A DNA stretch of 21,912 nt. It comes from a virus. Its lineage: Duplodnaviria > Heunggongvirae > Uroviricota > Caudoviricetes. Positions 326 to 552 of this stretch are shown here, piece by piece. The notes under the pieces are model-generated. The model worked only from the letters and a program-made list of their open reading frames with translations. It searched no databases and was not told the origin of the DNA. The stretch is taken from positions 1 to 21,912 of IMG/VR virus record IMGVR_UViG_2778261446_000009, one strand, 5' to 3'. The position numbers were made by a program, and so were the translations under genes. Numbering within the stretch: position 1 is the stretch's first letter; each line of letters opens with the position of its first letter.

Positions 326-552
326 ACTATCGATCGGCGACATCGATTAACATCCATTTTGAACAACACGGTTAACGTATTGAGATAAAGCGATAATTAT
401 TTCCATGCTGCATCGGTATGGACACTATGTTTGTGGCTGCCTTCACCAAACTATGTGCAAATTGTGGAGAAAGGAAGGAGTCGATGTTACTCTTAAGCAT
501 TACTTTTTAATAATTGGTAGCCTGCTGTTGTTATAGCAAGCTACCATTGTCC

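What the first reader, a model, noticed from the sequence alone, without database searches (positions are those of the whole stretch)
467..548. Orphan strong Shine-Dalgarno with an 8-codon ORF and an imperfect hairpin just beyond the tailspike stop
GGAGAAAGGAAGGAG is followed by ATG at 484 and an 8-codon ORF (MLLLSITF), then an imperfect inverted repeat GGTAGCCTGC...GCAAGCTACC at about 515-548. Neither orientation has a U-run, so it is not a canonical terminator. It may be the 5' remnant of a gene lost in a module swap, or a small leader-type element.
Basis: seen in the sequence. Interest (0 to 1): 0.2.

Follow-up and report, generated by a model that had tools for sequence, protein, structure and literature searches.

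The report
Hairpin ending the phage tailspike transcript
The stem-loop just past the tailspike gene of this E. coli P22-like prophage is most likely the ordinary 3'-end hairpin of the tailspike message, and the "ribosome-binding site plus 8-codon ORF" beside it is no more than chance would give and has no relatives anywhere.

Summary
The sequence features are real. There is a purine run GGAGAAAGGAAGGAG at 466-480, one base off the stated start. An ATG at 484 opens 8 codons (MLLLSITF) that end in TAA TAA. A 12-bp, 8-nt-loop hairpin lies at 515-546, 6 nt beyond the minus-strand tailspike stop (553-555), and no U-run follows it on either strand.

The roughly 200-bp spacer (354-552) between the tailspike and a LexA-controlled humD-like gene is an orphan. 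Only identical prophage copies match it (two of 5,426 complete E. coli genomes plus one draft contig). Phage, plasmid, IMG/VR, GTDB and metagenome searches gave nothing credible.

Half of 55 distinct P22-like tailspike downstream regions carry a strong hairpin in the same position, against 2.5% of control segments, and many lack a clean U-run. I therefore read the hairpin as the terminator or 3'-protective stem-loop of the tailspike (late) transcript. This is an inference. The "Shine-Dalgarno" would then be the complement of a CU-rich tract on that RNA.

SD-plus-start pairs with short ORFs occur about 20 times in this window, so this one is within chance. Relatives do carry plus-strand genes in this slot, such as acyltransferases and small membrane proteins. 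No homology links them to the mini-ORF, so the "gene remnant" idea stays untested. The finding is ordinary and of low interest.

The parts
515..546 (-). 12-bp stem, 8-nt loop hairpin starting 6 nt after the tailspike stop. On the minus (tailspike-sense) RNA it is an uninterrupted helix with one G.U pair. On the plus RNA the same position is a C.A mismatch.
   Evidence: -19.8 vs -18.8 kcal/mol; z -6.2 / -4.6; one of 3 such loci in the window.
553..2448 (-). Tailspike gene (631 aa): P22-type head-binding N-domain plus an SGNH/GDSL esterase receptor-binding part. The stop codon TAG is at 555-553.
   Evidence: PF09008, PF13472; 72% aa identity to the phage CY1 tail fibre.
466..480 (+). Purine run GGAGAAAGGAAGGAG, which is SD-like on the plus strand. 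Its complement CUCCUUCCUUUCUCC lies on the tailspike-sense RNA 34 nt downstream of the hairpin, inside a segment with more C than G.
   Evidence: sequence. C/G of 1.9-2.2 in 78-nt windows at 542-455, at or above the 99th percentile of minus-strand windows; these windows overlap the hairpin. C/G of 1.31 in the 80 nt strictly downstream of the hairpin.
484..513 (+). 8-codon ORF MLLLSITF plus tandem TAA TAA. It is in frame with a 30-codon ORF from ATG 418. No promoter is predicted upstream and no homologue was found.
354..552 (.). Orphan spacer. Homology to other humD loci ends at about 350-353. Homology to related receptor-binding domains ends at the tailspike stop codon (553-555).
1..288 (-). 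humD/umuD'-like S24 gene of 95 codons. NCBI annotation calls it frameshifted in identical prophages. Its RBS GGAGGTG is at 299-293.
306..325 (.). LexA (SOS) box TACTGTATGCATATGCAGTA upstream of humD. A putative -35 TTAATC at 350-345 marks the end of the conserved humD module.
   Evidence: sequence. (alignment A1: box and flanks conserved in 10 loci). The LexA consensus is from general knowledge.

Best explanation
The window is the right end of a P22-like prophage integrated next to dacD in E. coli. On the minus strand the order is: tailspike gene, 264-bp spacer, LexA-controlled humD-like gene.

The hairpin at 546-515 is the 3'-end stem-loop of the tailspike (late-operon) transcript. It would act either as a weak intrinsic terminator with a poor U-tract (AUUAUU), or, more in keeping with its anatomy, as the stable U-less stem-loop at which a Rho-terminated transcript is trimmed and protected from 3' exonucleases. 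In the second case the CU-rich, C>G tract just downstream would serve as the Rho-loading region.

Under this reading the plus-strand 'Shine-Dalgarno' is simply the complement of that CU-rich tract, and the 8-codon ORF is fortuitous.

Shown: the anatomy, the position, the rarity of such hairpins, the recurrence of a hairpin at this position in relatives, and the absence of homologues.
Inferred: that transcripts end here, and by which mechanism.
For: 1. Position and strength. A 12-bp helix of -19.8 kcal/mol (z -6.2) starts 6 nt after the tailspike stop. It is one of only 3 such inverted repeats in 21.9 kb.
2. Recurrence at the same position without sequence homology. Of 55 distinct downstream regions of P22-like tailspikes with diverse receptor-binding domains, 27 (49%) have a hairpin of -12 kcal/mol or stronger within 80 nt of the stop, and 26 of those start within 40 nt. 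Only 2.5% of 160 control segments from the same loci do. The 71-72% RBD relatives L010, L024, L025, L026 and L027, and also BTP1, each have one 5-15 nt after the stop.
3. Many of these hairpins lack a clean U-run. Tail T counts are spread from 1 to 6 of 8, so a U-poor tail is not exceptional for this position.
4. Strand asymmetry. The imperfect position is a G.U pair in the tailspike-sense RNA and a C.A mismatch in the antisense RNA. The same holds in L010.
5. C/G ratio is 1.9-2.2 in the 78-nt windows at 542-455 of the sense strand, at or above the 99th percentile for the window. [quoted passage not shown]
6. Nothing supports a plus-strand function. There is no predicted promoter, no downstream plus-strand gene, no Rfam family, and no homologue of the region or its ORFs. 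Orphan SD-plus-start pairs are common in the window.
Against: - There are no transcript data, so no 3' end is demonstrated.
- The tail has only 4 U in 8, so efficient intrinsic termination is doubtful. The scan tool does not call the site.
- The C>G enrichment is only mild (17 C / 13 G) once the hairpin itself is excluded. The trend among relatives is not statistically tested (median C/G 1.38 without a U-run vs 1.0 with one).
- Late-operon RNA polymerase modified by the Q-type antiterminator is expected, from general knowledge of lambdoid phages, to resist terminators. Termination here may therefore be partial.
- The stability difference between the strands is small, about 1 kcal/mol.
- All copies of the spacer are identical, so no covariation test is possible.
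- The sense/antisense G.U count in relatives (20 vs 6) is biased, because the hairpins were chosen from the sense fold.
Confidence: 0.55

Rival explanations
1. Vestige of a plus-strand accessory ('moron') gene. The SD, ATG and first codons would be all that is left of a lysogenic-conversion or small membrane-protein gene that once lay convergent with the tailspike. It would have been lost when this tailspike receptor-binding module or the humD module was recombined in. The hairpin would be the old shared terminator of the convergent pair.
For: - The slot holds plus-strand genes in relatives: an acyltransferase 330 nt from the humD start in L007, L109 and L111, and 136 nt in L061.
- L010 has two ~60-aa membrane ORFs there. 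L027 has a 58-aa ORF plus Acyl_transf_3 genes. Huey/APC_JM3.2 have a 28-codon hydrophobic ORF.
- The 8 codons are hydrophobic. After the two TAA codons the frame stays open for another 20 codons, ending at a TGA at 574-576.
- The neighbouring humD is itself decayed (frameshifted).
- Both module boundaries flank the spacer.
Against: - The spacer has no DNA or peptide similarity to any of those slot genes or their upstream regions. It also matches nothing in 5,426 E. coli genomes, 50,697 phage records, 72,556 plasmids, or exact-pattern scans of IMG/VR and metagenomes.
- No promoter is predicted.
- Eight codons and an SD-like motif are within chance expectation.
Confidence: 0.2
2. The hairpin is a chance or neutral feature of an AT-rich junk spacer created by recombination, with no role in transcript ends, and the SD/mini-ORF is likewise chance.
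For: - The spacer is an orphan found only in one prophage lineage with identical copies, so no purifying selection can be shown.
- Shuffles of the window give a mean of 1.5 hairpin hits of this quality.
- There is no U-run.
Against: - The hairpin's position 6 nt after the stop coincides with a strongly enriched positional class (49% vs 2.5%).
- Its local z-score is -6.2.
Confidence: 0.17
3. A functional plus-strand element. Options are a translated micro-ORF or leader whose ribosome occupancy modulates the adjacent hairpin, a small toxin-like peptide, or an antisense RNA running into the tailspike 3' end.
For: - There are two tandem SD-like cores: AAGGA with an 8-nt gap to the ATG, and AAGGAG with a 3-nt gap.
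- The ORF ends in tandem stop codons, and the hairpin begins 1 nt after the second.
- The plus-RNA fold pairs the SD with downstream U's.
Against: - That SD-sequestering fold is not better than shuffles (-7.5 kcal/mol, z -0.9).
- There is no plus-strand promoter and no downstream plus-strand gene to regulate.
- There is no Rfam hit and no conservation outside identical copies.
- To my knowledge (not checked here), an 8-residue peptide is shorter than any known type I toxin.
Confidence: 0.05

Closest known systems
[quoted passage not shown]
   Same: A stable stem-loop directly after the coding region, reduced U content after the stem, no A-tract before it on the sense strand, and mild C-over-G enrichment just downstream.
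   Different: Rho dependence and the RNA 3' end are untested here. The element sits in a phage late operon that is normally transcribed by antiterminated polymerase. The C>G signal is weak once the hairpin is excluded.
Intrinsic (Rho-independent) terminators following tailspike genes of P22-like phages
   Same: The position is the same, a few nt after the tailspike stop, and the stem length and energy are comparable. Relatives such as L037, L087 and L081 have clear T-runs there.
   Different: Here the tail is AUUAUUAA, with 4 U of 8 and A's thereafter. The consensus scan does not call it.
Accessory ('moron') slot between the tailspike and the prophage end in P22-like phages (gtr or acyltransferase conversion genes)
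   Same: The genomic slot is the same. Relatives carry convergent acyltransferase or small membrane-protein genes there.
   Different: No gene is present here, only an 8-codon ORF with no homology to any slot gene.

Membership tests
Canonical intrinsic terminator | G+C-rich stem-loop of about 5-14 bp with a short loop | tested here: met
   12-bp stem (6 G-C pairs), 8-nt loop, -19.8 kcal/mol.
Canonical intrinsic terminator | U-run (at least 5 U in 8 nt) immediately after the stem | tested here: not met
   The tails AUUAUUAA (minus RNA) and UUGUCCCU (plus RNA) each have 4 U of 8. The site is not reported by the scan.
Rho-dependent 3'-end protective stem-loop | Stable stem-loop without a U-rich tail at the end of a transcription unit | tested here: met
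   The hairpin starts 6 nt past the tailspike stop.
Rho-dependent 3'-end protective stem-loop | C-over-G enriched (rut-like) sequence immediately downstream | tested here: inconclusive
   C/G is 1.9-2.2 in windows that overlap the hairpin, at or above the 99th percentile. It is only 1.31 in the 80 nt strictly downstream.
Rho-dependent 3'-end protective stem-loop | A mapped RNA 3' end at the stem base that depends on Rho | not testable with these tools
   This needs Term-seq with and without bicyclomycin on an induced lysogen.
Translated small ORF or leader peptide | SD at workable spacing plus a start codon | tested here: met
   AAGGA lies 8 nt and AAGGAG 3 nt before ATG 484.
Translated small ORF or leader peptide | Promoter or transcript on that strand, and a downstream gene or structure under its control | tested here: not met
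   No sigma-70-like site on the plus strand at 330-480. No plus-strand gene follows.
Translated small ORF or leader peptide | Conservation of the ORF in relatives | tested here: not met
   Only identical prophage copies contain it.
Known RNA families (Rfam 15) | Covariance-model match | tested here: not met
   No hit overlaps 354-552 even at E up to 10.

The most novel reading that the evidence does not exclude
The strong-SD micro-ORF with tandem stops, abutting a hairpin and facing the tailspike 3' end, could be a functional plus-strand micro-gene. One option is a translated micro-peptide. Another is a ribosome-loaded antisense transcript that modulates the stability or termination of the convergent tailspike/late mRNA. 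It would occupy the slot where relatives carry conversion genes.
Probability: 0.04. Interest if true: 0.45.

Novelty: new member of a known kind. Interest (0 to 1): 0.1.

Why it matters
It matters little beyond annotation. If the reading is right, it marks where the late/tailspike message of this prophage ends. It would also be one more example of the U-less protective stem-loops that cap many E. coli transcripts.

The useful by-product is the mapping of module boundaries. The receptor-binding domain's homology ends exactly at the stop codon. The humD module ends at its -35. The 200 bp between them has no known source.

Tried and rejected
- **Homology of the spacer 354-552.** blastn in distant mode against E. 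coli complete genomes, phages and plasmids, with E-value limits up to 10, found only two identical prophages plus short hits that look like chance matches.
- **Exact-pattern scans.** The SD-ATG 21-mer gave 0 hits in IMG/VR and in metagenomes. The degenerate hairpin pattern gave 0 in IMG/VR. It gave 7 hits in GTDB genomes and 5 in metagenomes. The 7 genome hits come from unrelated phyla and the 5 metagenome contigs carry no organism label. I treated all 12 as chance matches because the number is near my rough expectation and none showed similarity to the spacer in later blastn.
- **Donor search through tailspike relatives.** CY1, L010, L011 and L024-L027 share DNA similarity with the window only up to the stop codon.
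- **Decayed T7-type holin.** The 42-codon minus ORF loosely resembles the gp17.5 N-terminus (L-V/I-K-A-A...I-V), so I considered that the spacer is a decayed holin carried along with a T7-like tail-fibre module. I rejected this: tblastn found no hit to the CY1 holin, and the exhaustive HMMER search returned only a few long, multi-stretch hits that I take to be spurious.
- **The 43-codon plus ORF.** No homologue was found.
- **Rfam.** Nothing in the region.
- **Remnant of the common humD-acyltransferase divergent module.** Rejected: alignment A1 shows the lineages diverge right after the -35, and the window shares nothing further with them.
- **G.U strand-bias count in relatives.** The count is biased by how the hairpins were chosen, so I did not rely on it.
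- **Literature on the P22 late-operon end.** The papers found gave only general statements.

Full report
**Context.** The window is the right end of a P22-like (Lederbergvirus-type) prophage of E. coli.
- The region 292-620 tested is 100% identical to contig NOCT01000050.1 (L009). Window 280-620 is 99.4% identical, and 355-556 is 100% identical, to prophages next to dacD in E. coli S163-2 and DETEC-P61.
- On the minus strand lies the tailspike gene (2448..553, 631 aa). It has a P22 head-binding N-domain (PF09008) fused to an SGNH/GDSL esterase domain.
- A 264-bp spacer follows, then a humD/umuD'-like S24 gene starting at ATG 288 with RBS GGAGGTG.
- Upstream of humD is a LexA box, TACTGTATGCATATGCAGTA, at 306-325 (conserved in alignment A1).
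- That gene is only 95 codons long. NCBI annotation calls it frameshifted in the identical prophages.

**Observation.**
- The purine run is at 466-480, one base off the stated start.
- ATG 484 opens MLLLSITF, followed by TAA TAA.
- The inverted repeat at 515-546 forms a 12-bp stem with an 8-nt loop.
- No U-run follows on either strand, and the terminator scan does not call the site.
- The hairpin is stable: -19.8 kcal/mol as minus-strand RNA (z -6.2) and -18.8 as plus-strand RNA (z -4.6). It is one of only three inverted repeats of that quality in 21.9 kb.
- The SD/mini-ORF is not remarkable. About 20 SD-like motif/start-codon pairs with ORFs shorter than 50 codons occur in the window, four of them with a hexamer or better plus ATG.

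**Origin of the spacer.**
- Similarity to other humD loci stops at about 350-353, exactly at a putative -35 (TTAATC, 350-345). Beyond it each prophage lineage differs.
- Similarity to related receptor-binding domains stops at the tailspike stop codon. These relatives are the T7-like phage CY1 (72% aa), metagenomic phages with other N-terminal adaptors, and the P22-like L010.
- The 199 bp in between (354-552) matches only identical prophage copies, in two of 5,426 complete E. coli genomes plus the draft contig L009. It has no credible match in 50,697 phage records or 72,556 plasmids.
- It has no similarity to 80 IMG/VR P22-like loci. Exact-pattern scans of IMG/VR, GTDB genomes and metagenomes gave zero hits or a handful of hits I treated as chance.
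- Rfam has nothing there.
- The 42- and 43-codon ORFs in the spacer have no homologues.
- Because all copies are identical, no covariation or selection test is possible.

**Comparative anatomy of the position.** I extracted the sequence after the tailspike stop in 80 P22-like loci, which gave 55 distinct downstream sequences from many different receptor-binding domains.
- 49% have a hairpin of -12 kcal/mol or stronger within 80 nt, almost always starting within 40 nt of the stop. Only 2.5% of control segments from the same loci do.
- The closest RBD relatives (L010, L024-L027) and BTP1 each have an unrelated but equally placed hairpin.
- Their tails range from clean T-runs to U-poor sequences.
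- The window's hairpin therefore belongs to a positional class, the stem-loop that ends the tailspike transcript.
- Its one imperfect position is a G.U pair in the tailspike-sense RNA but a C.A mismatch in the antisense RNA. The same holds in L010.

**Mechanism (inferred).** The hairpin most likely marks the 3' end of the tailspike/late message.
- Its AUUAUU tail would make it a weak intrinsic terminator.
[quoted passage not shown] These have stable stem-loops with reduced U content, followed by mild C-over-G enrichment, which protect the trimmed RNA from 3' exonucleases (PMC6061677).
- On the tailspike-sense strand the 'Shine-Dalgarno' reads CUCCUUCCUUUCUCC. The 78-nt windows at 542-455 have C/G ratios of 1.9-2.2, at or above the 99th percentile of the window.
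- The enrichment falls to 1.31 when the hairpin itself is excluded. I therefore hold the Rho branch loosely.

- The slot between tailspike and humD does hold plus-strand genes in relatives. These include acyltransferases divergently paired with humD (L007, L109, L111, L061), two tandem ~60-aa membrane ORFs (L010), a 58-aa ORF plus acyltransferases (L027), and an unannotated 28-codon hydrophobic ORF in Huey/APC_JM3.2.
- This makes a 'remnant of a lost gene' conceivable, and the neighbouring humD is itself decaying. But nothing in the spacer resembles any of those genes or their leaders, so the idea remains circumstantial.
- A leader-type element is not supported. No promoter is predicted, no plus-strand gene follows, and the SD-sequestering fold is no better than shuffles (z -0.9).

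**Verdict.** The hairpin is probably the ordinary transcript-end stem-loop of the tailspike gene. The SD/mini-ORF is probably incidental. This is a new instance of a known kind of element, of low interest.

Noticed in passing
window 553-2448 (-); L004 3350-5548; L010, L024-L027: The tailspike's SGNH/GDSL esterase receptor-binding part recurs at 71-72% aa identity on other N-terminal adaptors: the T7-like Kayfunavirus CY1 tail fibre and PF18668-type N-domains. PF12571 tail-collar proteins share it at only 39-43% identity. DNA homology ends exactly at the stop codon, which indicates cross-family exchange of a putative O-antigen deacetylase module.
   Followed up: partly
window 1-288 (-), 306-325: The humD/umuD'-like gene has a well-conserved LexA box but only 95 codons. 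It is called frameshifted in identical prophages, so it is probably a decaying SOS-regulated accessory gene at the prophage end.
   Followed up: partly
L007 3339-4334, L109 2839-3924, L111 2839-3966, L061 5960-7057: In many E. coli prophages humD is divergently paired with an acyltransferase-family gene, a likely O-antigen acetylation conversion gene. That gene is absent from this prophage, whose tailspike is an esterase.
   Followed up: partly
L005/L006 about 3238-3325 (+); L010 4937-5122 and 5134-5316 (opposite strand to the tailspike): Small hydrophobic ORFs sit in the same slot of relatives: a 28-codon MNSKIVVAINIVAFVLLVYFVNKHHPFM, unannotated in the two GenBank records, and two tandem ~60-aa membrane proteins, at least one of which is a called gene in the source assembly. 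These may be small membrane accessory proteins.
   Followed up: no
window 2825-2846; window 2581-2838 (+): A canonical terminator (AAACCCGC...GCGGGTTT plus a T-run) lies in the immI-like region between an antirepressor-side ORF and an Arc/Mnt-family repressor gene just upstream of the tailspike.
   Followed up: no
It is one of only three strong inverted repeats in the window.
   Followed up: no
L029, L075, L100, L058, L067 (first 70 nt after the tailspike stop): A recurrent motif CAAAGCTTTGCACTGGATTGCAAGGCTTTGTG follows many P22-like tailspike genes. It may be an att-site or tRNA-derived sequence rather than a terminator.
   Followed up: no
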